Positions 6,066-63,917 are shown, counted from the first letter of the whole stretch. The stretch: DNA of 63,917 nt, filler included, from Basidiobolus ranarum (GCA_040143965.1; 53 parts of 53 records of this genome joined end to end with filler, not necessarily neighbours in it), one strand, 5' to 3'. Numbers and translations are program-made. Notes: generated by a model from the letters alone, not told the origin.

Positions 6066-6205
6066 GGGTGAAGCTATTTTGACTGCTACATATATCCAAA
6101 ATAGAAGTCCAACACATAGCAACCATGACTCTAAAACTCCTATTGAAATCTCGACTGGAAACAAGCATAATCTGAATCACCTCAGAATTTTTGGATCAAT
6201 TTTAC
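6066..6205 (+). mobile_element. Copia integrase fragment, interrupted by a CMC element
   Basis: GEAILTATYIQNRSPT...NLNHLRIFGS. Confidence 0.8.
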
Positions 6206-7178
6206 CCCTAAAAAAAATAAAATTGATTTGATCCAGATTGGATCCACCCTTCTAAGTTGCAAAACCATCAGAGAACCGTCACAGTATTGGTGGCTTGCAT
6301 TCTGCCAGGGACTTTGATGGTGTGATGGTGGTTTCTTGATGGTATTATAATTCCATTTGTACATGTTAAAATATTGATTCACATATTTGGCATGCATTAT
6401 TAATTTTTGGCAATATTTGCAAAATATAATTTTTGAATGGCAATTTACTGCATTTACTGCTGTAGGAATTCATATTAATATGCATGCCTTTATTTAGATA
6501 TTTTAGGCTTTGTACTCCAGCCATTATGAGAATCAAAAAATACAAGAATCTTGTTGTGTTTAGTCTCTACATATGCACATACTTGACTGATCAGACATAA
6601 CTCAACAACCTCAATATGCTTTACCAGCAAACTAATGGTGAAAAAATTGCTAAAAAACTGAAATTTTGAATAGCACTGACACTTGGCAAATAGCTGACTC
6701 TTGTCACCATTCAGAATGCAAATAAGCTCTTGGATTTGGGAAAATTTCCATAAAGAATTCAGCCAATATATCCCCAACTTGCGGTCAACAAATCTCCTGC
6801 CACAAGTCAATGTGTCACTGCTTGAATAAATTACTCAATGGCTAAAACAATAATACTGCATATCTCAATCTATCTCACCAAGTAGTCTGTCTTGCAGCTT
6901 TCCTAGAAATACCATCAGATTATTACACAAACAAATTAGTCTGAATTATAGAGGTACTCACTCTGTGTCCATGGATTGGGCTTTGTGGCTGTTGTTGTGC
7001 TCAAACAATGCAAAAACCAGTGAACACATAAAAAAGAGCCCTTTGTTGGAAGGTTAATATACTCTGGAGTCTTGTTAACCCATGACATTACATCCATCAC
7101 AGATTTTGTTAATATATTTTTAATCAGATTAGCATACAATAATACGGAGAATTTCATATAGAGCACCATTTCATCACA
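6206..7178 (-). mobile_element. CMC/EnSpm-type DNA transposon right end and transposase C-terminal region
   Basis: Terminus CCCTAA(C)AAAAATAAAATTGATTTGATCC; the same block recurs at 14088, 15850-16036, 19395-19837, 22052-22923, 26780, 35108, 55600, 57460 and 63216. Confidence 0.75.
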
Positions 7179-9703: not shown

Positions 9704-9719
9704 ACCTCTGACACTTGAA

Positions 9720-9750
<31 letters not shown>

Positions 9751-9812
9751 GGCCCCTGCACAAGGATGACACGTAAATCTTGAGTGGACACCTCTTCGGA
9801 GGAAATTTTTTT
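9704..9812 (+). ncRNA. U6: U6 spliceosomal snRNA (5' end truncated by the gap)
   Basis: ATTGGAACGATACAGAGAAGATTAGCATGGCCCCTGCACAAGGATGACAC contains the ACAGAGA box, AGC triad and ISL, followed by a T7 Pol III terminator. Confidence 0.93.
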
Positions 9813-15849: not shown

Positions 15850-16873
15850 AACCAAATTTGAGGATCAATATTTTAACATGTAGGAATACCGTAAAATTAC
15901 TGTCAAGAAACCACCATCACACCATCAAAATCCCTGGCAGAATTCAAGCCACTGATATTGTGATGGTTCTCTGATGGTTTTGTTATTTCAGAGGGTGGAC
16001 ACAATTCAGATCAAATTGATTTTATTTTTGTTAGGGATTGTCACATATTCCTATGCTATAAAAGCTGGAGGCTTTGTAGAAAAAATAATCACACATACTG
16101 TCACTGTATAAGGCCACCAGCTGCACAAAGCCTGGTGAATACCAACAGTAATTAGTGCACAAAATTGACTTTAGTTTGCTCCCTGAGTCCACTGGCTGTG
16201 CTTTGCCTCAATGTTTTGGTAACATAACCAAAGGTTAAGCTACCATGGAGTTACCACAGTTTTATGACCAAAATGATGTAGGCAAAAAAGCAACTTTTGT
16301 CAAACCAGTAAGTCCAGATAACTTTGAGGACATGCTGCTAGATGTTGACCTTGGTTATTCCAGTTCTCAAGGTAATATACCAGAAGTTGACAAAGAAGAC
16401 AATGGTTTTGTTACAGACTTTTTGTTATTGGTAAGCATTAGTCAACTCATAACACTTACAATAAAGGAAGTAGATTTGCTTATTGAGGAATGAAGAGTTC
16501 AGTCCACTCTTAGTAACCAGGTTTTTATTGGTTTTTCCTACACTTCTACCACAGTTGATTGGCAAATGTTGCTTGCCTCAGACCTGGTAGAAGTGAAAAC
16601 AATTGTCAATCATATAACTTATAATCCTTCTGTAATTAAACTACCTTCATGTCCAAATGGTTGTTTGGTTTTATCAGTGATCTGAAAAACCTGAAGTCAA
16701 GTACTTTTTGCACCTAATTGGCAATTGCTGAATCAGGTAAGTATTGTTCATATTTGGCTTACATACCGTTGATTCCCCATCTTAAAGTTTTGATGAAATC
16801 ACCCAAATATAGATCATTAATCCAATACCAAAGTACTCACCATAAAGCTGATGGTATTACCGATATACCTGAT
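15850..16873 (+). mobile_element. CMC right end (to 16036) followed by a transposase N-terminal fragment of the same family
   Basis: TTTTGTTAGGG terminus, then DVDLGYSS...YLAYIPLIPHLK...HHKADGITD. Confidence 0.75.
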
Positions 16874-22051: not shown

Positions 22052-22923
22052 GACGGTTTTGCTATTTTGGAGGGTGGATCCGCTCCGGATCAAATCGATT
22101 TTATTTTTGTTAGGGGTATTCATATATATTAAAATATTGATCCTCATATTTGGCATGTTTTATTAATTTCTTGCAATTTTTGCAAAATATAATTTTTGAA
22201 TGGCAATTTATTGGGTTTACTGCTGTAGGAATTCAAATTAAAATGCATGCATTTATTTAGATATTTTAGGCTTTGTACTCCAGCCATAATGATAATCAAA
22301 AATACAACAATCTCATTGTGTTTAGTCTCTACATATGCACATACTTGACTGACCACACAAAACTCAACAACATCAATATGCTTTACCAGTAAACTAAAAG
22401 TGGAAAAATTGCTAAACATCTGAAATTTCAAATAGCACTGACACTTGGCAAATAGTTGACTCTTATTACCATTCACAATGAGAGTAAGCTCTTGGATTTT
22501 GGCAAATTTCTGTAAAGAATTCAGCCAATATGTCCTGGACTTGCAGTCCACAAATGTCCTGCCACAAGTAGATGTGTCATTTCTTGAATAGATTACCCCG
22601 TGGCTAAAACAGCAATACTGTGTATCTCCATCTATCTCACCAAGAAGTCTGTCTTGCAGATCTCCTAGAAATACTGTCAGATAATGACACAAACAAATTA
22701 GTCCAAATTAACAAGGTACTTACTCTGCATCCATGGATTGGGCTTTGTTGCTGTCATTGTGCTCAAACAATGTGAAAACCTGTGAGCACATTGAAAAGAG
22801 CCCTTTGTTGGCAGGTTAGTATACTCTGGAGTTTTTTTTACCCATCACATTACATCCATCACTGATTTTGCTGATACATTATTAATCAGATTAGCATATG
22901 GTAATACTGACAATTTCACACAG
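22052..22923. mobile_element. Two CMC right-end segments in opposite orientation (transposase C-terminus on minus strand)
   Basis: Terminus at 22115; ORF 22144-22692 (GEIDGDTQY...VCAYVETKH). Confidence 0.75.
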
Positions 22924-23023
22924 NNNNNNNNNNNNNNNNNNNNNNNNNNNNNNNNNNNNNNNNNNNNTTAATTAATTAANNNNNNNNNNNNNNNNNNNNN
23001 NNNNNNNNNNNNNNNNNNNNNNN

Positions 23024-23456
23024 CTGATTGGCCTTAGACTTTGTGTTCAGATGCAGTCACCTTACTCAATATTTTCCTCTTTGGGAATTACTGCTTGTAC
23101 CACAAGTCACCAGACTTTCAACATTCCCTCTCAAGCAGGATTTCCAGATTTAGCACTAACCAGGGCTCATAACCTGCTGAAATTATTTAGGGAGAAATAT
23201 TGGTCGGGCCAGGAATTGAACCCAGGACCTCCTTCACTCTAGCAAGGTGCTCTAACCACTGAGCTACCAGTTCTTGTATGCTATGCCTATATTGTTAGGG
23301 AACCTTAACCTAGTCGGTCAATGTATGGTACTTTGGCATTTCAGCTTTACAAGCAACTGATTAGCCTTAAACTTTGTGTTCAGATGTAGTCACCATACTC
23401 AATATTTTCCTCTTTGGGAATTACTGCTTGTACCACAAGTCACCAGACTTTCAACA
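23024..23456 (-). mobile_element. TRIM with tRNA-bearing LTRs: 5' LTR 23456-23175, PBS 23174-23161, PPT about 23134-23124, 3' LTR 23123 to gap
   Basis: 100-bp direct repeat with about 4 mismatches; TGTTGAAA...TTTCA(G/A)CA termini; PBS GGTTATGAGCCCTG; PPT TTGAGAGGGAA; non-coding 51-bp internal region. Confidence 0.88.
23201..23273 (-). tRNA. tRNA-like sequence inside the TRIM LTR (AGA at the anticodon position, short variable loop; likely not a functional tRNA)
   Basis: GAACTGG TA GCTC AGTGGTTA GAGC A CCTTG CTAGAGT GAAGG AGGTC CTGGG TTCAATT CCTGG CCCGACC A; A and B boxes intact. Confidence 0.8.
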
Positions 23457-23940
23457 GAAACAAGCCTAATCTGAATCATCTCAGAATTTTTGGATCAATA
23501 GTATGTGCTCATATTCCTAAACCTCAGCATAGGAAATTGGACAAAAAGGCATTTAAATGTATCCTATTAGGATATCAGAACAAAGGCTACTGTCTCATAA
23601 TTTCTGGCACAAATCAAATCATCAACTCCAGAGATACTTAACTTATTGAAGAAAATCTCAAATCTTCTAATCAAGGGGATTTGATTTTGGCTGAAAATCA
23701 ATTTCTCAATAACTCAAATTCTGACTTAACAAGTTCTGAAACCAAACTTGAGCTAATAAGTACTAAAAGCAACTTGGAAAATGATACATTGGAAATAGAT
23801 ACTGGAATTAGGCCAAATTTGGAATCACAAACTATTGATCAACATTATCCAAATTTAGAAAATATCACATCTGGGACAAGGTCTAAAACATCAGCCACCA
23901 ATTTGACCAATATTGGATGCAATCAATTTTTGGAAGGATG
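23457..23940 (+). mobile_element. Copia integrase C-terminal/SH3 region, host to two TRIM insertions
   Basis: NKPNLNHLRIFGSIVCAHIPK..RKLDKKAFKCILLGY. Confidence 0.85.
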
Positions 23941-24132
23941 TGTTGAAAGTCTGGTGCCATGTGGTAAAAGCAGTAGTTCACAAAGAGGAAAATATAGAAT
24001 ATGGTGACTGTATCTGAATGCAAAGTCTAAGGCCAATCAGTTGCTTGTATAGCTGATATGCAATTGTACCATACTTTTACAGACTAGGTTAAGGTTCCCT
24101 AGCAATATAGGCATAGCATACAAGGACTGGTA
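23941..24132 (+). repeat. Second tRNA-LTR copy, truncated by the gap at the tRNA 5' end (GGACTGGTA)
   Basis: Starts TGTTGAAAGTCTGGTG; reverse-complement match to 23265-23456. Confidence 0.85.
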
Positions 24133-24427
24133 NNNNNNNNNNNNNNNNNNNNNNNNNNNNNNNNNNNNNNNNNNNNTTAATTAATTAANNNNNNNNNNNN
24201 NNNNNNNNNNNNNNNNNNNNNNNNNNNNNNNNAAGTTAGGCAAAGTAGTCAAAATCTTGATTAATTCTCAATAGATTCATACTCAAAGATATCCATTGAG
24301 AGCTCTAGACTTAAGACACTATGAACAAAGCTTTCATTATCTTTTGAATGTGCAATAATGTCTCAAAGTACTTCCCTTAAATATACTACATAGGTAAAAT
24401 AAATTGTTTCCAAAATGGTAAATATCA

Positions 24428-24519: not shown

Positions 24520-25341
24520 TGCAAGGTATCCACCAGATAGCCAGAAGAATGTTGATTGAGCAACATTAATACAATGGTGAGCTTTGATAGTGATATTGAT
24601 ACAAACTTGTGTTTGGTATAAGCTAAACCTTGAGTATGAAGAACTCTATAAAAATATTCAGGAGAATATATATCAAAGAGATCAGGGATTTTGAAGGTAA
24701 CTAATTAGCATTCAAGTGATCATTGTGTAAAATTTGAGTTATGTTTTTTGCACATGCGTTAATCCATAGTTCTTCAAGATTGTAGCCAATAATGTGCAAC
24801 TATTTTGCAAGATCTTAAAATTTCCCTCTTGAAACAAACAAATTTGATTAAAATCAAATCTAACCTGACAATTTTATGATGGCAAGTAAAAAGTCAATCC
24901 TACATGAATTAAAACTGTGATGGTTTTGTATAATAACTATCCTCAAATTTTGTTAGGGAAAGCTGCTTCCATTGTAGTAAGTGTTATGAGTGGACTAATG
25001 TTTGCCAATAACAAAGAGTCTGTAACAAAACAATGGTATTCTTCTTCAACTTCTGATATACTACTATTGGTACTGGAATAACCAAGGTCAACATCTAGCA
25101 GCAAGTCCTTAAAGTTGTCTGGACTTACTGGTTCACCCACAGTTCCATTCTACCTATATTGTTCTGGTCATATAACTGTGGTAACTCCATGGTATCTTGA
25201 CTTTTGGCCATGTTACCAAAACTTTGAGGTAAACTATAGTCAGTGGACTCAATGGGCAAAGCTAAAGTCAATTTAGTGCACTTCTTACTGTTGCTATACA
25301 CCAGGCTTTGTGCAGCTGGTGGCTTTGTACAGTGACCATGC
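24520..25341 (-). mobile_element. CMC left end (terminus at 24958) abutting a transposase N-terminal fragment of the same family
   Basis: CCCTAACAAAATTTGAGG terminus on the minus strand; DVDLGYSS motif. Confidence 0.7.
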
Positions 25342-26779: not shown

Positions 26780-27645
26780 CCCTAACAAAAATAACATTGA
26801 TTTGATCCGGATTGGATCCACCCTCTGAAATAGCAAAACCGTCAGAGAACCATCACAATATTGTTGGCTTGCATTCTGCCAGGTATTTGATTGTGTGACA
26901 GCAGTTTCTTGACAGTATCTTAACATTATTCATACATGTTAAAATATTTATCCTCAAATTTGGCATGCGTTATTCAATATCCAGCAATTTTTGCAAAAAT
27001 ATAATTTTGGAATGGCAAATTACTGGGCTTACAGCTGTAGGAATTTGAATTTATATGCATGCCATTATTTAGATGTTTTAGGCTTTGTATTCTAGCCATG
27101 ATGAGAATCAAAAAATACACAAATCTCATTGTGTTTAGTCTCTACATATGCACATATTTGCCTGATTAGACATAACTTAACAACATCAATATGCTTTACC
27201 AGCAAACTAATGGTGGAAAAATTGCTAAACATCTGAAATTTTGAATAGCACTGACACTTGGCAAATAGCTGACTCTTGTTATCATTCACAATGCAAATAA
27301 GCTCTTGGATTTGGCAAATTTCCATAAAGAATTCAGCCAATATATCCCTGACTTGCAGTCAACAAATGTCCTGCTACAAGTAGATATGTCATTGCTTGAA
27401 TAGATTACCCCATGGCTAAAATAATAATACTGTGTATCTGGATCTATCTCACCAAGAAGTCTGTCTTGCAACTTTCCTAAAAAAACTGTCAGATTTTTAA
27501 ACAAGCAAATTAGTCCAATTATTAGAGATACTTACTCTGTGTCCATGGATTGGGCTTTGTTGCTGTTATTGTGCTCAAATAATGCAAAAACCCATGAGCA
27601 CATTGAAAAGAGTCCTTTGTTGGCAGATTAATATACTCTGGAGTC
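26780..27645 (-). mobile_element. CMC right end and transposase C-terminus
   Basis: CCCTAACAAAAATAACATTGATTTGATCCGG terminus. Confidence 0.8.
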
Positions 27646-28003: not shown

Positions 28004-28968
28004 CTATAGAAAACCACATTCCCGAAGGTTACTTTGAATGATGATGTCGTTGACCGCAGCCATAACGAAACCCATCTGTTGGGTATCAGTAGCACATGTC
28101 AAATGTGCATACACCTGTTTACGATTAGACTGATTTAAGGCTTTGAATCGCTCGGTGATGTACTTGCAAGCGGCATCGAAATCATTGCCACCTAGGAGTC
28201 TAAGTTAGATGTGTTGTGTTGAGGATTACTGAGATTAATGCTAGGTACCTTGGTAGTCTGGGAAGAAATCCTTCATTGGTGAGATGGATAGTTTTTCCTT
28301 CAGCAGGTCGATCTTGTTCAAAAACAAAATGATCGATGTCTTAATAAACCAGCGGGAGTTACAGATCGAGTCGAAAAGAGTCAACGCCTCTTGCATACGG
28401 TTCTATGGGAATAAAGACGTTGAGTATACTGAAAGATACTAGCAGTCACCACCACTCACGCTCTTAAGAATACACATACCACACTGTCGTCCTCGATGAG
28501 AGACTGGTCATACTCACTAATGGCAACCATGAACACAATGGCGGTTACATTTTCGAAGCAATGGATCCACTTCTTCCGTTCTGACCGTTGACCTCCTACG
28601 TCAAGTAGTCGATATGTTACATTGCCAATGGAGAAGGTTGTCTCGGTAATTCCAGTAGTTTTCACTCTTGATCTCAATACGTCTTGATCGTTGGGGACAT
28701 AGTCCGGCTGACCAATACGGTCTATACTATCAAAATAGCTATCACAAAAATATTTGAGCCCTGATCTCTCTCTCAAGATTATATCAAAATGAAGCTTACT
28801 ATTTGGCCGAGTCGTTCAATTGAAACTCTCGGGATCTATTGAAGCAGCTTTGGACTCCTTCATCTTTCCACAAGCACTTGATAGCCTCCGTTATCTCCGG
28901 GGCCAACCTCTCTCCCTCTATCTGGTCGGGAAGACCGAGCATTATATCGACGTAAGGATGGTTCTGTA
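28004..28968 (-). CDS. Heterotrimeric G protein alpha subunit, fungal group I (Gi-like); 5' truncated, three introns
   Basis: Motifs [41 protein letters not shown] and TCATDT; C-terminus LRECGFL*; GT-AG introns restore the frame. Confidence 0.95.
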
Positions 28969-32692: not shown

Positions 32693-33800
32693 GTGTATCT
32701 TAATCCCATATCAATTGTCCCCTTCAAATATCTGAAAATCCACTTAACTGCTACATAATGCCCAGATGTTGGGTTTTGCACATGTTGGCTGACTACTCCC
32801 ACTGCAAAAGAGATATCTGGTTGGGTTCCAGTCATAGCATAGATCAAACTACCCACCATAGATTGATAAGGAAACTCAGGGCTTTTAAATGATATATTTT
32901 GAGCCATATTTGGCCAATTTTCATCATTTTGGATGGGATTTTTGACTAGTTTCACACCTGGATCCATGGGAGTTGCTACTGGCTTACAATTCTCCATCCT
33001 GTAACATCTGAGAATGTCTGAGATGTATTTAGATTGATTCAGAGTAATAGATTTGCTCAATATATCTGTATGGATCTGCAGACCTAAAAAATATGTAAGT
33101 TCACCTAAATTGGTCATCTTGAATTGGACTGATAGATCTCTTTTGGTGTTGCTGAGAGCTTCCTCATTATTGGTAGCTGTAATGAGGTCATCTACATATA
33201 AGGCAAGTATCACCTTACTGTCTTTATCTGTCTTAAAGTAGATCCCAAAATCCACCATACTCTTTTGGAAATCAAGTGATTCCAAGTATGTATCTATCTT
33301 AGTGTACCAGGCCCTGGGTGATTGTTTAAGTCCATACAGTGATTTTTGTAGCTTACACACGTCCTCAGTGTGCTCAGGATCTACAAGACTATCTGGTTGA
33401 TCCATGAATATATCCTCTTCCAAGTCCCCATTCAAAAACGCAGTTTTAACATCCATTTGATGGATTTTTAAGCTGTGTTTTGCTGCAACTGCTAGTATGG
33501 TTCTGATGGAATTAAACTCTGCTACAGGAGCAAAAGTTTCATTGTAGTCCACCCCTTCCATTTGAGAGTATCCTTTAGCCACAAGTCTGGCTTTATATCT
33601 CTCTACAGATCCATCAGCTTGCTGCTTAACTTTAAACACCCATTTGCATACAATTGATTTTTGGTCATCAGGTAACTTAACCAAAGTCCAAGTTTGGTTA
33701 TCTTTGAGTGACTCACACTCCTCTGCCATTGCAGAACTCCAAAAATTTGTGTTGGTACTCACCATAGCCTCTTGTACTGATTTGGGTTCATCAGGAAAGG
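32693..33800 (-). mobile_element. Copia RT (RVT_2), open across the contig
   Basis: ORF 32641-33765 contains all RVT_2 motifs. Confidence 0.95.
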
Positions 33801-37123: not shown

Positions 37124-37195
37124 GGCTCAATGGTCTAATCGTATGATTCCTCGTTCAGGTTGCGGAGGTCTCGAGTTCAATTGCCGGTTGAGCCC
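37124..37195 (+). pseudogene. tRNA-Pro-derived pseudogene
   Basis: Perfect acceptor stem GGCTCAA/TTGAGCC with C73 and a Pro-type TGGTCTA..GTATGATT D arm, followed by a T-rich tail. The D-loop GG, anticodon stem and T stem are damaged. Confidence 0.75.
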
Positions 37196-43552: not shown

Positions 43553-43750
43553 TCAATATTTTGAAAAATTCAGGAGTTACTGTAATAAGATATAATAGAT
43601 AAGTGAGGTTAATAAGAGACACTTGTTATATAGATATAGAGATATTCCTATTTAGAATATAGGGGCTATAGATACATTGCTTTCTGCTTCTGATATATTT
43701 ATCATAACTAAAGTTAACTATGATGTTGAATAAAGATTAATTAACCAACA
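43553..43750 (-). repeat. LTR family B inserted at the end of Copia gag
   Basis: Matches about 47690-47881. Confidence 0.8.
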
Positions 43751-44658
43751 GCTTCTCTTGCAATTCTTTTAAAGCAATCTTTGCTTAAATGGCCAGTTCT
43801 TTTACAGTAATCAGAGAATGTGTCACTTTTCTTCTGAAAGTGCTTTTGATCTTTATAGGAAGGTTTCCCATAGCCTGTTAAAGCATTTTCTGCATTCTTT
43901 TGGTTGGATACTGATTTGCATAAATCTTCATCCAGAAGTCTGCCAAATACATAATTTAGGGTCAAATTTTCAGTTCTTGATTCTAGAGCCATTACTAGGC
44001 TCTGACACTTGTGTGGCAGGCTATTCAGAACTGTAACTATGATATCTTGATCAGTAGTAGGCACTCCAATGCATTCCATCTCATCCACTACAATAGTGAC
44101 TCTATTAATTAGTGATTTAATGTCTTCTCCTTGCTCCATCTTTAAGTTAAAGAATAATCTTCTTAGAAATATCTTGTTGGCAGCAGACCTTGTTTGGTAG
44201 GTGTCTTCCAAGGCTTTCTGTACCTTCTTGGCAGTTTTAGCTCTTGAACATTGAATTAGCAGTTTGTCTTTAACATTAAGACAAATTGTGTTAATGGCAC
44301 TTTGTTCCTTTTGAACTTGGAGTACAATTTTGGTTTCAGATAGTTTTGCATTGTTTTCTTCTTGTACAACAGTGTCCCAAAGTTTTTTTTTTTGAAGCAG
44401 CACTTTCATTTTAATTTTCCAAACTTGATAATTGGTTCCATCCAATTTTTCAGAAGAGTGAAAAGTTCCATAAATTTGAGAAGTAGACATTCCAGAGAGT
44501 GCAAGCTTGAGGCTCATAACCTGTTAAAGTATTTGGGAGCCTGTTGGAAGTGGTTTGAAGAATTAGAGGAACTGGTGGTTTTCACTTATTGATTTATTGA
44601 GTAGAAAGTTGACATTTATAGTTATGTAATGATTTAAATAGACTATTGTGTATAATGT
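43751..44658 (-). mobile_element. Copia family D 5' end: LTR (to 44522), PBS GGTTATGAGCC, gag ORF from 44517
   Basis: KLDGTNYQVWKIKM...LW, UBN2 gag, (C)DYCKRTGHLSKDC knuckle. Confidence 0.9.
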
Positions 44659-46237: not shown

Positions 46238-47068
46238 TGTTGAAGTTTATAATCTTTATCATATTTGTTATATCTAACTTTATACACCAAATGTTTTCAT
46301 ATTTTGGATATAAGTTCTGTAACATTACTTAATCAAATATCACTTAACAGAAAATTGAAACTTATAATATATATATGTGAATAATATTAGAATTAGCATT
46401 TCCATATTGTGAGATTCAAACTCATCTAAATTGCCCCTAAGATAGCTCATTTTACTCCCATATATGTTCTGAACACAACCCCAGTGTTAGTTTTCTGTAC
46501 TCTTATCAAAATGTATATATGCTTTATTTTAGGACAATAAATAACTTTTTCCCAAAAGGCTATTCACAACTCCACTTGTCTAAAGTTCCTCCAAACAGCC
46601 CATATTTTCCCAATAGGTTATGAGGCCTATGTTCTAACCTTTAGAGCATGATAGAAGCCACCACTATCACTTTTGTTGACTCAAATAGAGAAAAATTTGA
46701 TGGTGAAAATTACAATTTTTGGAAGTTCAAGATGCAAATCATGCTGGAGCACAGAGAGCTTTGGGATGTAGTCTCTGGAGATGAAAAGGAACCTTCTGAC
46801 ACTTTTTTATTGGAAGCTTACAAGAGAAGAGATAAGAATGCCTTCAATGTCATTTGTCACAGTTTGAAGGATTCACAACTTGTTAACATTCAATATCCAA
46901 AGACTTCCCATAAAGCTTGACTATAATGGAAGAGTGTTATGAAGTAAAGAGTCTTGATAGTAGACTCTTTCTCAGACAAAAATTCTTCAATATAAAGATG
47001 GAAAAGTCTGAAAGCATGGTTACTCATATTGCAAATGTGAGATCTTTGGCAAAACAACTGGAAAATAT
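46238..47068 (+). mobile_element. Copia family C 5' end: LTR 46238-46615 (TGTTG...CAATA), PBS GGTTATGAG, gag from 46648
   Basis: EKFDGENYNFWKFKMQIMLEHRELWDVV gag N-terminus. Confidence 0.9.
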
Positions 47069-47168: not shown

Positions 47169-47881
47169 ATTTTCTTTGTAGCATCATCAAGTGAGCAAGC
47201 CCTTTTTGCTCATGATGTTCTACTAGGATTTCCCATGCATTCTTGGCAGAGTCAGCATCTCTAACTAGCATAAGTTGTTGTCATCCAAGTCTTAGACATA
47301 TTTCCCTAAATGCCAATCTGTCTTTTTCTTTGAAGGCTGCCCTGGCTTCTTTACATGTTGGCTTCTTTGTTTCAGTGTCAGAATCTGTACTTTCTTCTTC
47401 AGAAGTTTCTTCTTCTTCATCTGGTTGAACTACTTCCCAGACATGTTTCCCTTCAAGCACAAGTTGCATCTTGAATTTCCATTCATGGAAATCTTCCCCA
47501 TTGAATGTTGGAATATTAGTAATCTCCTTTTGGGAAGAAGACTCTAATTCACTTGCTGCTACCATGTTGGAGGATCTTGACATAATGGGGGTAGACTTTG
47601 AGTATTAGAAGCAACTTATGATAGTGTGTTTTAGTTAGTTTATTCTTAAGAGTATATGGTGACTTATATAGTAGAAAAGTAAATCAATTGTTTGAGATAT
47701 TCAGGAGTTTGTGTAATAAGATATAATAGATAAGTGGGGGTAATAAGACATACTTGTTATATAGATATAGAGATATTCCTATTTAGAATATAGGGGCTAT
47801 AGATACGTTGCTTTCTGTTTCTGATATATGTATCATAACTAAAGTTAACTATGATGTTGAATAAAGATTAATTATCCAACA
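47169..47881 (-). mobile_element. Copia family B 5' end: LTR 47881-47565, PBS TGGTAGCAGC, gag start
   Basis: TGTTG...CAACA termini; FNGEDFHEWKFKMQLVLEGKHVWEVV. Confidence 0.85.
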
Positions 47882-48273
47882 CTTTTCTTGTAAGCTTTCA
47901 ATAAAGAAGGGTCAGAAGGTTCCTTTTCATCTCCAGAGACTACATCCCAAAGCTCCCTGTCTTCCAGCATGATTTGTATCTTGAACTTCCAGAAATTGTA
48001 ATATTCTCCATCAAGCTTTTCAACACTTGAGTTAATAAAAGTGGTAGTAGTGGTTTCTGTCATGCTGTAAAGGTTAGCACACGGGGCTCATAAACTATTG
48101 GGAAAATATGAGCTGTTTGGAGGAACTATAGAAAAGTGGAGTTGTGAATAGCTTTGTGAGATAATTGTTTATTGTCCAGAAATAAAGCATTTTTACTTTT
48201 TGGTAGAAATACAGAAAACTAACACTGGGGTTGTATTCCCAACATCTGTGGAAGTAAATGGAGAGATGTTTGG
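47882..48273 (-). mobile_element. Copia family C 5' end (LTR end 48096, PBS, gag), interrupted by family B
   Basis: CCCAATA GTTTATGAGCCCC; EKLDGEYYNFWKFKI. Confidence 0.85.
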
Positions 48274-58006: not shown

Positions 58007-59109
58007 TTCCTTGTAGGAATGGTGTGCTTCTGCTGTCCTGGTATGTACAACGTCATCAACGGTATGGGTGCCGGTGGCCAGATGGATGATAGTACTGCTA
58101 AGGATGGTAATGTAGCCCTGTATGCTTCTTTCGCTGTATTCGGTTTCTTCGGTGGTGCCATCTACAATTATCTCGGAGTCAGACTCACCTTGTGCATTGG
58201 TGGACTCTGCTATGCTCTTTACTCTGGCTCTCTCCTCAACTACAATCACACTGGTAACAAGGCCTTTGTCATTGGTTCCAGTGCTGTCCTTGGTCTCGGT
58301 GCTGCTTGTCTCTGGACAGCACAAGGTGTGATCATGATGTCCTACCCATCTGAAGGTCAGAAGGGTAAGGCTGTTGGTCTGTTCTTTATCGTGTTCAATC
58401 TTGGTGGTGTGCTTGGTGGATTCATTCCATTCGGTATGAACTTCAACTCCAACCTTGGTGCTGTCAGTGATGGGACATATGCTGCTTTCTTGGGTATCAT
58501 GATTGTTGGTGCTTGCATTAGTTGGCTGTTACTTCCACCATCCAAAGTGGTTCGTGATGATGGATCTAAAGTCCCAGAGCAGAAGTTTGATGCCAATATC
58601 GTGAAAGAGGTTGTTGCCACTTTCAAGGTGTTCACACATAAGCAGATTCTCTTGATCACCCCATTCTTGTTCTGTGTCACTTTCTACTACTCTTACGAGT
58701 TCGGAGCCATCAATGGAGTTCTCTTCAGTGTTCGTTCTCGTTCCTGGAACAATGTATTCTACTGGGCTTTTGAGATGCTTGGTGCTTACGCTCTTGGCCA
58801 CTTCCTTGATACTCCTAGATACGATCGTAAGACTAAGGGTCTCTATGCCTTGACTGGTGTAGTTGCCATTTGCATGTCTGTATGGGGTGGTTGTTTGGCT
58901 TTGCAATTGCAATACACTCGTGAGGACCATCCTCGTGATCTCGACTTCATCAACACTCCAGGAGCATTCTGGCCCAAGTGGTTGTTGTACGTACTTTTCG
59001 GTCTGTGCGATGCTTTGTGCCAGACTCTTCTCTTCTGGATTCTTGGCTCACTCTCCAACGACTCCACCGTTCTTGCTCAGTATGCTGGTTATGCTAAAGC
59101 TATTCAATC
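58007..59109 (+). CDS. UNC-93-like (DUF895) MFS membrane protein, truncated at both ends
   Basis: VCFCCPGMYN, GLGAACLWTAQG.IMMSYP.E..KG, FNLGGVLG; multiple hydrophobic segments; intronless here. Confidence 0.88.
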
Positions 59110-60411: not shown

Positions 60412-61513
60412 AATTTCACTCCTGAAACTGAAAAAATTGATTAAAATCAAATCTAACTTGACGATTTTATGATGGTAAGTAAACGGTCAATCCCAAATGG
60501 ATTAAAATTGTGACGGTTTTCCCACAATAACAATCCTCAAATTTCTGTTAGGGTTACTTGAGTTAGTTTCTGGCATGTTAATGTCTTCCAAAGTGGACAG
60601 TGGATTGCTAGATTGCTCATCAATTAAGTCCTCTGTTCTTGCTGGTTTTTTTCCTCTTGTGCCAGCAAGCTTTGTCTTGGAAGCCAATTTTGACTAAGAT
60701 TTTGAATGCTTTTTAAATGGCATTGAAAATTTCAGATGGTAAACTTGGTGTAATGGAGTTGCTTTGAAACAGCTTGCAATAAACCAAAATTGCCATCCAT
60801 TACCAGAAATATTGTGTAAATCCCCTGATGACTCATCTGTGACACTGTCTCAGAATCAGCTGATGCTATTGATTGGCTATACCTAAAAACCACTCTTATG
60901 TGGGAGGTGTTCTTTTTTCTACAATATCCTTCTCATGCCACAACACAAATGTTTAAAGAAGCCCTGCTATTATTGTCACAAATTCATGTGCTATGAAAGC
61001 CAGCAGCTTAATAGAAAAAATAATCTCATTCATGGTCACTGTACAAAGCCACCAGCTGCACAAAGCTTAGTGCATAACAATAGTAATAAGTACACCAAAT
61101 TGACTTTATTTTGCCCATGGAGTCCATGGACTGTAGTTTGCCTCAAAGTTCTGGTAACACTGCCAAAAGTCAAGATACCATGCAGTTACCACATTTATAT
61201 GACCAGAATGATATAGGTCAAAATGCAACTTTGGTCAAACCAGTAGGTCCAGACAACTTTGAGGAATTGCTGCTAGATGTTGACCTTGGTTATTCCAGTG
61301 CTGATGGTAGTATATCAGAAGTTGAAGAAGAAGAAAACAGTTTTGTTACAGACTCTTTGGCATCCGCAAACATTAGTCCACTCATAACACTTACTGTAAA
61401 GAAAGCAGCTTTGATTATTGAGGAGTGGAGAGTTCAATCCAATCTTAGCAACCAGGTGTTTATTGGTTTTCTTACACTTTTACCACAGTTGATTGGCAAC
61501 TGTTGCTTGCCAC
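60412..61513. mobile_element. CMC centre: accessory ORF start (-, about 60722) and transposase start (+, about 60935), head to head; a left end is inserted at 60553
   Basis: ORFs 60502-60687 (-), 60935-61216 (+) and 61111 onward (+) match the family fragments elsewhere. Confidence 0.7.
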
Positions 61514-62815: not shown

Positions 62816-63917
62816 CTTGTGGACTCCCTGCAGGAAGAAAACTATTGGTAATAGATAGGTGCTGAAACTGAAACTTAACTAAGATGGATGTATCAACTGG
62901 TACAGAGCAAGATTAGTAGTAAAAGGCTATGATCCAAAACATGGCATTGACTATGATTAAAAATTTTCTCCCGTTGCAAAGTTTACCTCAATCAGAGTAA
63001 TCCTAGCCAATGCTACCCACCAAGAAATGCTGATTAAACAAATGGATGTCAAGACAGTATTTCTTAATGGAGAAATTGATGAAGATAAATACATGGGTCA
63101 ACCAGAGGGATATATTGCAAAAGGAAACAAACATCAAGTATGCACACTACAGAGAAGTCTATATGGTCTGAAAAAGGCTCCTAGTGCATTGAATACTAAA
63201 ATCAATCAGATCTTCCCCTAGCAAAAATAAAATTGATTTGATCTGGATTGGATCCACCCTTCAAAATAACAGAACCATCAGACAACCAACACAATATTGT
63301 TGGCTTGCATTCTGCCAGGGATTTTGATGGTGTGATGGCAGTTTCTTGACAGTATCGTAATGGTATTCATACATGTTAAAATATTGTTTCTCAAATTTGG
63401 CATGCATTATTCAATATCCAGCAATTTTTGCAAAAATATAATTTTTGAATGGCAAATTGCTGGGTTTTCTGCTGTAGGAATTTGAATTAATATGCATGCC
63501 TTTGTTTAGTTATTTTAGGCTTTGTGTTCCAGCCATAATGAGAGTCAAAAGTACAAGAATCTGGTTGTGTTTAGTCTCTAAATATGCACATACTTGACTG
63601 ATCTGACATAACTCAACAACATCAATATGCTTTACCAGCAAACTAATGGTGGAAAAATTGCTAAACATCTGAAATTTTGATTGGCACTGACACTTGGCAA
63701 ATAGCTGACTCTTGTTATTGTTCATAAAGAGAATAAGCTCTGGGACTTTGTCAAATTTCTGCAAAGAATTAAGCCAATATATCCCTGACTTGCAGTCAAC
63801 AAATGTCCTGCCACAAGTAGATATGTCATTGCTTGAATAGATTACCCCATGGCTAAAACAATAATACTGCATATCTCCTTCTATCTCACCAAGAAGTCTG
63901 TCTTGCAGCTTTCCCAA
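62816..63917. mobile_element. Decayed Copia RT (+) interrupted by a CMC right end (from 63216)
   Basis: QMDVKTVFLNG, SLYGLKKAP; CCCTAGCAAAAATAAAATTG terminus. Confidence 0.88.

What the first reader, a model, noticed from the sequence alone, without database searches (positions are those of the whole stretch)
23024..23456. Miniature LTR retrotransposon (TRIM) whose LTRs carry a whole tRNA-like gene
Seen on the minus strand: a 282-bp LTR (TGTTGAAA...TTTCAGCA, 23456-23175), then the PBS GGTTATGAGCCCTG, a 51-bp non-coding internal region ending in the PPT TTGAGAGGGAA, and a second LTR with about 4 mismatches over the 100 bp visible. The LTR contains a 73-nt cloverleaf (23273-23201) with intact A box TAGCTCAGTGG and B box GGTTCAATTCC. 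No run of four or more T occurs on this strand from the tRNA through the internal region and next LTR, so Pol III could read through the whole unit. Established knowledge: plant Cassandra TRIMs carry 5S rRNA Pol III promoters in their LTRs. I recall related 5S- and tRNA-bearing groups (Helenus and Ajax, the tRNA type from an insect), but I know of no fungal tRNA-LTR TRIM. Inference: this is a Pol III-driven SINE/LTR hybrid of about 615 bp, mobilised by resident Copia elements.
Basis: partly seen in the sequence, partly recalled or inferred. Interest (0 to 1): 0.9.

Follow-up and report, generated by a model that had tools for sequence, protein, structure and literature searches.

The report
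Helenus-type tRNA-bearing miniature LTR retrotransposon
This is a decayed copy of a tiny, gene-less LTR retrotransposon whose terminal repeats carry a tRNA-derived segment, a kind already described in 2024 as Helenus in rust fungi, animals and a plant, here probably sitting in a Basidiobolus-like fungus.

Summary
The structure is real. On the minus strand there is a 282-bp TG..CA repeat (23456-23175). It is followed by a 51-bp internal region that starts with a primer-binding site and ends with a polypurine tract. A second copy of the repeat follows and is 96/100 identical. That second copy looks short only because the contig ends there: the window is 53 contigs of about 1.1 kb joined by N linkers. 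The repeat holds a 73-nt tRNA-derived segment with intact A and B boxes (Rfam 39 bits, threshold 29). It is not a working cloverleaf. Two further copies have the same edges, and a Copia paralogue supplies the uninterrupted version of the left-hand insertion site. The primer-binding site matches the anticodon arm of initiator tRNA-Met, as do three Copia 5' ends in the window. tRNA-bearing TRIMs are published as Helenus, with 113 families in rust fungi, the same primer type and Copia dependence. The only new point is the probable host, a Basidiobolus-like fungus outside the published range. Pol III transcription is untested, and the lack of T runs is not significant. No genome or reads were available.

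The parts
23175..23456 (-). 5' LTR (LTR1), 282 bp, TGTTGAAA...TTTCAGCA
   Evidence: Its 5' edge coincides with the end of similarity to an uninterrupted Copia paralogue.
23201..23273 (-). tRNA-derived segment (LTR positions 184-256). A box at 23266-23256, B box at 23222-23212. Degenerate acceptor stem.
   Evidence: Rfam RF00005 39 bits against a gathering score of 29. ARAGORN calls no sense-strand tRNA. The fold is not a cloverleaf.
23161..23174 (-). Primer-binding site GGTTATGAGCCCTG, directly after the LTR's terminal CA. It is complementary to the anticodon arm of initiator tRNA-Met.
   Evidence: Its first 12 nt are contained in a published antisense probe specific for yeast initiator tRNA-Met.
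23124..23174 (-). Whole internal region, 51 bp, non-coding (PBS, 26 nt, PPT)
23124..23134 (-). Polypurine tract TTGAGAGGGAA, abutting the TG of the 3' LTR
23024..23123 (-). 3' LTR (LTR2). Only the first 100 bp are present, cut by the contig end. 96/100 identical to LTR1.
23457..23940 (+). Target DNA: a degenerate Copia pol fragment (integrase C-terminal SH3-like domain plus linker, one in-frame stop)
   Evidence: Pfam SH3_retrovirus 74 bits for 23459-23635. Translation.
23941..24132 (+). Third LTR copy in opposite orientation, LTR positions 1-192, 88% identical, cut by the contig end 9 nt into the tRNA-like segment
31297..31384 (-). Fourth LTR copy on another contig, LTR positions 195-282, 95.5% identical, ending TTTCAACA. 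It is followed by unrelated DNA with no PBS, so it is a solo or a 3' LTR.
6158..6200 (+). Paralogous Copia integrase sequence that runs uninterrupted across the insertion point of LTR1 (the empty-site equivalent)
   Evidence: 95% identity to 23457-23499. Upstream it continues as integrase coding sequence.
43744..44539 (-). Candidate helper type: a Copia 5' end. The LTR end ...TTTAACA is followed at once by GGTTATGAGCC and then a gag ORF.
   Evidence: 27 of 31 bases identical to the TRIM's LTR end plus PBS. Pfam Retrotran_gag_2 110 bits.
46616..46917 (+). Second Copia 5' end with a PBS-like GGTTATGAGGCC, followed by gag
47875..48095 (-). Third Copia 5' end with a PBS-like GTTTATGAGCCC, followed by gag

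Best explanation
This is an old, decayed insertion of a Helenus-type TRIM (Kojima's 'TRIMp3'). It is a gene-less LTR retrotransposon of about 615 bp (282 + 51 + 282) that landed inside the integrase region of a Copia element.

Shown here: two LTR copies with TG..CA ends bracket a 51-bp internal region. That region consists of a PBS for the anticodon arm of initiator tRNA-Met and a PPT. The LTR carries a tRNA-derived segment with intact A and B boxes. The repeat is a discrete multi-copy unit. Copia elements with the same PBS type live in the same assembly.

Inferred life cycle of the family: RNA polymerase III starts at the tRNA-derived module in the 5' LTR, near LTR position 184. It runs through the last 99 nt of the LTR, the 51-nt internal region and the 3' LTR, because no T run stops it. 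Copia Gag/Pol supplied in trans packages this RNA. Reverse transcription is primed with a 5' fragment of tRNA-iMet annealed to the PBS. Strand transfer uses the repeated 99-nt stretch, second-strand synthesis is primed from the PPT, and the DNA is integrated, probably with a 5-bp duplication.

This particular copy is probably dead. Its LTRs differ at 4 of 100 sites and its tRNA stem is eroded.
For: - **Anatomy and coordinates:**
- **tRNA origin:** Rfam tRNA 39 bits against a gathering score of 29. The A box fits TRGCY..YGG and the B box fits GGTTC, the motifs Kojima reports as conserved in Helenus.
- **Discrete mobile unit:** the 5' edge TGTTGAAAG is shared by three copies with three different upstream flanks. 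The 3' edge TTTCA(G/A)CA is shared by two copies with different downstream flanks. Copy 4 gives a perfect 8-bp terminal inverted repeat.
- **Insertion site:** similarity to an uninterrupted Copia integrase paralogue (6158-6200, 95%) stops exactly at the LTR1 edge. The flank is Copia pol (Pfam SH3_retrovirus 74 bits).
- **PBS:** its first 12 nt lie within an antisense probe specific for yeast initiator tRNA-Met. GGTTATGAGCC occurs 4 times in the window with at most 1 mismatch (expected 0.66; 0 of 100 shuffles reach 4). The other three sites all sit at an LTR end just upstream of a Copia gag.
- **U5 tail:** it resembles the three Copia LTR ends (empirical P 0.009 to 0.024).
- **All four differences between copies inside the tRNA segment fall in stems.** In each case one variant pairs better: G2-C71, U5-A68, and a Watson-Crick T stem. 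This suggests the ancestral LTR had a nearly intact tRNA.
- **Fit to the published class:** Helenus is 311-1263 bp. Fungal families mostly use the iMet anticodon-loop PBS, make 5-bp TSDs and depend on Copia.
Against: - Only one internal region is visible and its 3' LTR is cut by the contig end. No full element, no target-site duplication and no copy count could be obtained.
- No genome, reads or RNA data were available.
- Pol III use is pure inference. The T4-free strand is not unusual (27% of shuffles and 13% of window tiles also have none).
- A TATA at LTR 166 and an AATAA at LTR 270 would also fit a Pol II LTR.
- The tRNA-like part is not a foldable tRNA.
- No sequence comparison with Helenus consensus sequences was possible. 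They are in supplements and in Repbase, neither of which I could see.
- The similarity to Copia LTR ends is short and only modestly significant.
- The host assignment rests on one gene on another contig. A Copia RT from the window has no close named relative (best 65%, unnamed).
Confidence: 0.68

Rival explanations
1. This is an ordinary Pol II-transcribed TRIM. The tRNA-like piece is a passenger relic, for example an old SINE or tRNA insertion in the LTR, and plays no promoter role.
For: - There is a TATA at LTR 166, 18 nt before the tRNA-like start, and an AATAA at LTR 270 near the LTR end.
- The tRNA-like part is degenerate.
- The absence of T runs is not significant.
- Kojima states that Pol III use by Helenus is not experimentally validated.
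Against: - The A and B boxes are intact in every copy that covers them: LTR1, and copy 4 for the B box and most of the A box.
- The differences between copies fall in stems, not in the boxes.
- The conserved-box pattern is the one reported for 100+ Helenus families.
Confidence: 0.22
2. This is a one-off internal deletion of an autonomous Copia whose normal LTRs are this 282-bp repeat. On this view there is no TRIM family.
For: - Only one internal region is visible.
- The PBS and U5 end resemble those of Copia elements in the window.
- Copy 3 directly follows Copia pol sequence on the same strand, after a purine-rich GGAAGGA (also the 323-433 row).
Against: - The three Copia 5' ends seen in the window carry different LTRs with no tRNA-like part (only one tRNA hit at gathering score).
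- The sequence before copy 3 is integrase-RT linker coding sequence, not the 3' end of pol. It matches the unit's PPT at only 6 of 11 positions by my count.
- Kojima argues that LTRs built around a Pol III promoter are unlikely to serve a long autonomous element.
Confidence: 0.07
3. This is a short-read assembly artefact, or a tandem LTR array, rather than a discrete two-LTR element.
For: - Both ends of the 1,109-bp contig lie inside LTR copies.
- Two other contig ends fall at LTR positions 192 and 195, which is typical of collapsed repeats.
- Tandem arrays are known for one Helenus family. They are also known for Cassandra, from a reference title seen.
Against: - A PBS placed exactly after the CA and a PPT placed exactly before the TG are not something misassembly creates.
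- LTR1 and LTR2 differ at 4 sites, so they were resolved as separate copies.
- A tandem array would still be made of the same element.
Confidence: 0.03

Closest known systems
Helenus (tRNA-LTR TRIMs; fungal families such as LTR-1_PTrit), Kojima 2024, PMC10886601
   Same: - Two short LTRs with only a PBS and a PPT between them, and a total length within 311-1263 bp.
- A tRNA-derived segment in the LTR with conserved A and B box motifs that is not a functional tRNA.
[quoted passage not shown]
- Copia-type partners.
   Different: - The probable host is a Basidiobolus-like fungus (Basidiobolomycota). Published fungal Helenus are all Basidiomycota: Pucciniales plus three Agaricomycetes named in the text, two of them in Table 1. 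The paper never mentions early-diverging fungi.
- The 5-bp TSD could not be seen.
- Sequence relatedness to any named family was not tested, because the consensus sequences are in supplements and Repbase.
- Helenus is a structural grouping that its author thinks arose several times.
Cassandra (plant TRIM with 5S rRNA in its LTRs)
   Same: A TRIM with a Pol III promoter module inside each LTR. Its transcript starts in the 5' LTR module and ends in the 3' LTR.
   Different: Cassandra carries 5S rRNA with a conserved terminator that gives an 18-bp terminal repeat on the RNA. Here the module is tRNA-derived and no terminator is visible, so the repeated stretch would be up to 99 nt. Cassandra is found in plants only.
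Ajax (nemertean TRIM with a 5S promoter fragment)
   Same: The same TRIMp3 concept, with 5-bp TSDs.
tRNA-derived SINEs (SINE2)
   Same: A tRNA-derived head with A and B boxes that is presumed to drive Pol III transcription of a short non-coding retroelement.
   Different: SINEs have no LTRs, PBS or PPT and are copied by LINE machinery at the target site. This element has all three LTR-type features. Kojima proposes that a SINE2 insertion into a TRIM LTR is the origin of Helenus. Here no SINE body or tail follows the 73-nt segment.
Copia-superfamily elements primed by an internal fragment of tRNA-iMet (Ty5, Drosophila copia)
   Same: [quoted passage not shown] TGTTG...CA termini (recalled).
   Different: Those elements are autonomous, with gag-pol. 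This element has 51 non-coding bases.

Membership tests
Helenus / TRIMp3 | Two LTRs in direct orientation flanking a short non-coding internal region, total under 1000 bp | tested here: met
   LTR1 is 282 bp, the internal region is 51 bp, and LTR2 is 96/100 identical. No sense ORF exceeds 35 aa. Caveat: LTR2 is cut by the contig end, so the 615-bp total is inferred.
Helenus / TRIMp3 | tRNA-derived sequence inside the LTR, with box A (TRGCY..YGG) and box B (GGTTC) conserved | tested here: met
   Rfam tRNA 39 bits against a gathering score of 29. TAGCT..TGG and GGTTC are present. The motifs are as stated.
Helenus / TRIMp3 | [quoted passage not shown] | tested here: met
   GGTTATGAGCCCTG directly follows the LTR's CA. 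12 of its nt lie within a yeast tRNAiMet-specific antisense probe. The host's own tRNA-iMet was not available for comparison.
Helenus / TRIMp3 | PPT at the 3' end of the internal region | tested here: met
   GAGAGGGAA abuts the TG of LTR2.
Helenus / TRIMp3 | Target-site duplication (5 bp in fungal families) | not testable with these tools
   The 3' end of the element lies beyond the contig end. Only the 5' flank GTTTC is visible. No genome or reads were available.
Helenus / TRIMp3 | Multi-copy, mobile family (several full-length copies and solo LTRs) | tested here: inconclusive
   There are 4 LTR copies on 2 of 53 contigs, with shared edges and an empty-site paralogue. Only 1 internal region is seen.
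Helenus / TRIMp3 | Sequence homology to a catalogued Helenus family | not testable with these tools
   The consensus sequences are in Data S1 and Repbase, which I could not see. Two metagenome pattern scans and one genome contigs pattern scan gave 0 hits.
Helenus / TRIMp3 | Transcription by RNA polymerase III from the LTR module | not testable with these tools
   No RNA data were available. This is also unvalidated for published Helenus.
Cassandra / Ajax | 5S rRNA-derived sequence in the LTR | tested here: not met
   No 5S match appears in the Rfam E-value scan of 22900-24250 or in the scan of the whole window. The only hit in the LTR is tRNA.
tRNA-derived SINE | No LTRs, PBS or PPT; a LINE-like or A-rich tail | tested here: not met
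   [quoted passage not shown] The tRNA-like part is followed by 26 nt of LTR and then the PBS, with no tail.

The most novel reading that the evidence does not exclude
This is an uncatalogued Helenus-type (TRIMp3) family native to an early-diverging fungus (Basidiobolus, Basidiobolomycota). It uses the same tRNA-iMet anticodon-arm primer and Copia helpers as the rust-fungus Helenus families. If so, Pol III-promoted LTR retrotransposons are either much older in fungi than the roughly 130 My proposed for Pucciniales, or they arise repeatedly wherever tRNA-derived promoters meet Copia-dependent TRIMs.
Probability: 0.45. Interest if true: 0.4.

Novelty: new member of a known kind. Interest (0 to 1): 0.3.

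Why it matters
The element class is already published, so the finding does not open a new category. Its modest value lies in three points.

1. It would extend tRNA-LTR TRIMs from Dikarya (rusts and a few mushrooms) to an early-diverging fungal lineage. That bears on whether such Pol III/LTR hybrids are ancient or arise recurrently.
2. Such elements inflate tRNA gene predictions, as shown for rusts. They should therefore be masked when annotating these genomes.
3. The very short internal region (51 bp) and the visible Copia 5' ends with the same PBS type give a compact system for asking how a helper recognises a non-autonomous partner.

Tried and rejected
- **Whole-genome search and genome file:** no genome is held for this window.
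- **Public sequencing runs:** No read support, copy number or RNA evidence could be obtained, and read laying could not be used.
- **Earlier findings of the scan:** nothing for this genome, for this sequence, or under the words Helenus or Basidiobolus.
- **Exact-pattern scans with two LTR strings in metagenome contigs and one in prokaryote genome contigs:** 0 hits each. These are uninformative, because the collections are not expected to hold this fungus.
- **ARAGORN at default and relaxed thresholds:** no sense-strand tRNA. Single-sequence folding gives no cloverleaf and no energy signal.
- **T-run argument for Pol III read-through:** tested and found not significant.
- **Taxonomic assignment of the transposon contigs:**
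  - The 59-aa Copia fragment beside the element found no relatives.
  - The Copia RT at 32695-33798 has only unnamed or distant hits, the best at 65% identity.
  - The gag search gave unnamed representatives, the best at 60%.
  - The look-up of their names was unavailable.
  - The Basidiobolus assignment therefore rests on one MFS/UNC-93 gene at 95% identity.
- **Sensitive BLAST for more diverged LTR copies in the window:** none beyond the four.
- **Second weak tRNA hit at 37124-37195:** unrelated to the LTR.
- **Considered and rejected:** the tRNA-like part as the element's own primer. It shows no complementarity with the PBS by eye, and Kojima reports the same for Helenus.

Full report
**What the window is.** The 63,917 bases are not one locus. 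They are 53 contigs of 1,102-1,113 bp joined by N..TTAATTAATTAA..N linkers. The finding lies on the contig at 23024-24132. All evidence therefore comes from the roughly 58.6 kb of real sequence in the window and from the literature.

**Checking the observation.** The minus strand reads as follows.
- A 282-bp repeat, TGTTGAAAG...AATAATTTCAGCA, lies at 23456-23175.
- GGTTATGAGCCCTG follows it directly.
- The internal region is 51 bp in all and ends in TTGAGAGGGAA.
- The repeat then starts again and runs to the contig end at 23024.

The two copies agree at 96 of 100 positions. Rfam's tRNA model matches 23273-23201 over its full length at 39 bits, against a gathering score of 29. In the repeat, the segment occupies positions 184-256. 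The A box TAGCTCAGTGG and the B box GGTTCAATTCC are intact.

The segment is tRNA-derived but is not a working tRNA.
- The acceptor stem pairs at 4 of 7 positions and the anticodon stem at 4 of 5.
- ARAGORN calls no sense-strand tRNA, even with thresholds relaxed to ps70, where its only two calls are on the opposite strand.
- The minimum-energy fold is not a cloverleaf (z = +0.59).

The sense strand has no T4 run. This is weak evidence, because 26.9% of 20,000 shuffles and 13% of 247 same-sized tiles of the window also have none.

**Is the repeat a discrete mobile unit?** BLAST within the window finds two more copies.
- Copy 3 lies at 23941-24132 on the plus strand. It covers LTR positions 1-192 at 88% identity.
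- Copy 4 lies at 31384-31297 on another contig. It covers LTR positions 195-282 at 95.5% identity.

The 5' edge TGTTGAAAG is shared by three copies that have three different upstream sequences. The 3' edge TTTCA(G/A)CA is shared by two copies. One is followed by the PBS and the other by unrelated DNA. Copy 4 gives a perfect 8-bp terminal inverted repeat, TGTTGAAA/TTTCAACA.

The 484 bp between LTR1 and copy 3 is a degenerate Copia pol fragment (Pfam SH3_retrovirus, 74 bits; one in-frame stop). A paralogous Copia copy on contig 6066-7178 matches it at 95%, starting exactly at the first base outside LTR1. Upstream, that paralogue continues as integrase coding sequence. This is an empty-site equivalent, and it shows that the LTR edge is an insertion boundary.

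All three copies that reach the tRNA region carry it. Contig ends at LTR positions 192 and 195 suggest that the assembler broke where the tRNA-like module begins. A sensitive search found no further copies.

**Primer site and helpers.** The first 12 nt of the PBS are contained in a published antisense Northern probe described as specific for yeast initiator Met-tRNA (PMC11230868, passages only). The plus strand at this site reads as a Met anticodon loop preceded by GGG. As I recall, that is the hallmark of initiator tRNAs.

GGTTATGAGCC occurs four times in the window with at most one mismatch. The expectation is 0.66, and 0 of 100 shuffles reach four. The other three sites each sit at the end of an LTR, immediately upstream of a Copia-type gag (DUF4219 and, at two of the three sites, Retrotran_gag_2).

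One of these, at 44539-44511, matches the element's last 20 LTR bases plus PBS at 27 of 31 positions. The 26-nt U5 tail resembles all three Copia LTR ends, with empirical P of 0.009 to 0.024. Copia is abundant in the window. For example, an intact RVT_2 ORF scores 269 bits. Copia-dependent mobilisation is therefore the natural reading.

**Decay.** LTR1 and LTR2 differ at 4 of 100 sites. At 3 of these, LTR2 agrees with copy 3, so LTR1 carries most of the private changes.

Inside the tRNA segment, the four differences between copies all lie in stems. In each case one variant pairs better: G at position 2 in copy 3, A at position 68 in copy 4, and CA at positions 50-51 in copy 4. The ancestral LTR probably had a nearly intact tRNA, and this copy is an old, probably dead insertion.

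**Comparison with what is known.** I read Kojima 2024 (PMC10886601) as follows: the abstract, sections 1, 2, 3 and 4.2, and the tables and legends. I did not see the supplements.

The paper defines Helenus as TRIMs with a tRNA-derived sequence in their LTRs.
- It reports 113 families in Pucciniales plus some Agaricomycetes.
- It also reports families in six animal phyla and one lycophyte.
- Total lengths run from 311 to 1263 bp.
- Box A and box B motifs are conserved, while the tRNA is mostly non-functional.

Every one of these features that I could test is met here. The TSD, the copy number and the sequence relatedness could not be tested.

I found no later extension of the Helenus range. The searches for Helenus and TRIMp3 list only Kojima's paper and papers that cite it; I read passages from two of these. 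The searches for Basidiobolus with retrotransposon, and with tRNA and LTR, list nothing on such elements by title or abstract. Repbase Reports and subscription journals are not covered by these searches.

**Host.** The one clearly cellular gene tested is an MFS/UNC-93 transporter at 58007-59107. It is 95% identical to a Basidiobolus meristosporus protein and 66% identical to B. ranarum proteins. Basidiobolus is placed in Basidiobolomycota, outside the published fungal range of Helenus. Kojima's paper never mentions that lineage or other early-diverging fungi. Its screen was seeded from Repbase LTRs and then extended only to related genomes.

The transposon contigs could not be assigned independently. 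I therefore put about 80% on the element being native to a Basidiobolus-like genome.

**Mechanism.** The LTR retrotransposon architecture, the iMet-type PBS, the PPT, the insertion into Copia and the presence of matching Copia 5' ends are shown. The rest is inferred.
- Pol III would start at the tRNA-derived module, near LTR position 184.
- It would read through the remaining 99 nt of the LTR, the 51-nt internal region and the 3' LTR.
- This would give an RNA of about 430 nt whose ends share up to 99 nt for strand transfer.
- Copia proteins would then do the rest.

Unlike Cassandra, which has a terminator that gives an 18-nt terminal repeat, no terminator is visible here. A Pol II alternative cannot be excluded, given the TATA at position 166 and the AATAA at position 270.

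**Verdict.** This is a real Helenus-type TRIM copy of a known kind, in a probably new host lineage. It is of modest interest.

Noticed in passing
whole window (linkers such as 22924-23023 and 24133-24232): The window is 53 contigs of 1,102-1,113 bp in descending length, joined by N runs around TTAATTAATTAA. Any feature that appears to cross a linker is artificial, and most contigs end inside repeats.
   Followed up: yes
37124-37195 (+): A second tRNA-like hit scores just below the Rfam threshold (27.4 bits against 29). It has a perfect 7-bp acceptor stem and is followed directly by TTTGTTTT, a normal Pol III terminator context. This contrasts with the LTR's tRNA-like part. It is probably an ordinary tRNA gene or pseudogene, unrelated to the LTR.
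   Followed up: partly
9710-9810 (+): U6 spliceosomal RNA gene, 73 bits.
   Followed up: no
47169-48273 (-): Nested transposons. A Copia 5' end (PBS-like site plus gag start at 48063-47875) is interrupted near 47870 by another LTR that begins TGTTGGATAA. A second, different Copia gag follows at 47583-47284.
   Followed up: partly
22147-22707 (-), 6493-6834 (-), 27095-27358 (-), 63513-63917 (-): A repeated ORF family of unknown type (shared stretches such as ...CGRTFVDCKS..YWLNSLQKF... and ...NKSQLFAKCQCY.KFQ...) occurs on 4 of 53 contigs. On contig 6066-7178 it lies just beyond the point where the Copia integrase paralogue is interrupted.
   Followed up: no
16239-16490 (+), 25128-25340 (-), 61090-61512 (+): Another repeated ORF family (...MELPQ.YDQND.G..ATFVKPV.PDNFE..LLDVDLGYSS...) occurs on 3 contigs. 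Its type is unknown.
   Followed up: no
28459-28815 (-) and 58007-59107 (+): There are few cellular genes among the contigs. One is a G-protein alpha subunit exon (Pfam G-alpha, 147 bits). The other is an MFS/UNC-93 transporter that is 95% identical to a Basidiobolus meristosporus protein. Both contigs have higher G+C (0.43 and 0.47) than the transposon contigs (about 0.32-0.40).
   Followed up: partly
23941-24132 (+): Copy 3 of the LTR has acquired a TTTT run at about LTR position 140 (CATACTTTTACAG, against CATACATTGACCG in LTR1). This might stop Pol III before the repeated region if this copy served as a 3' LTR.
   Followed up: no
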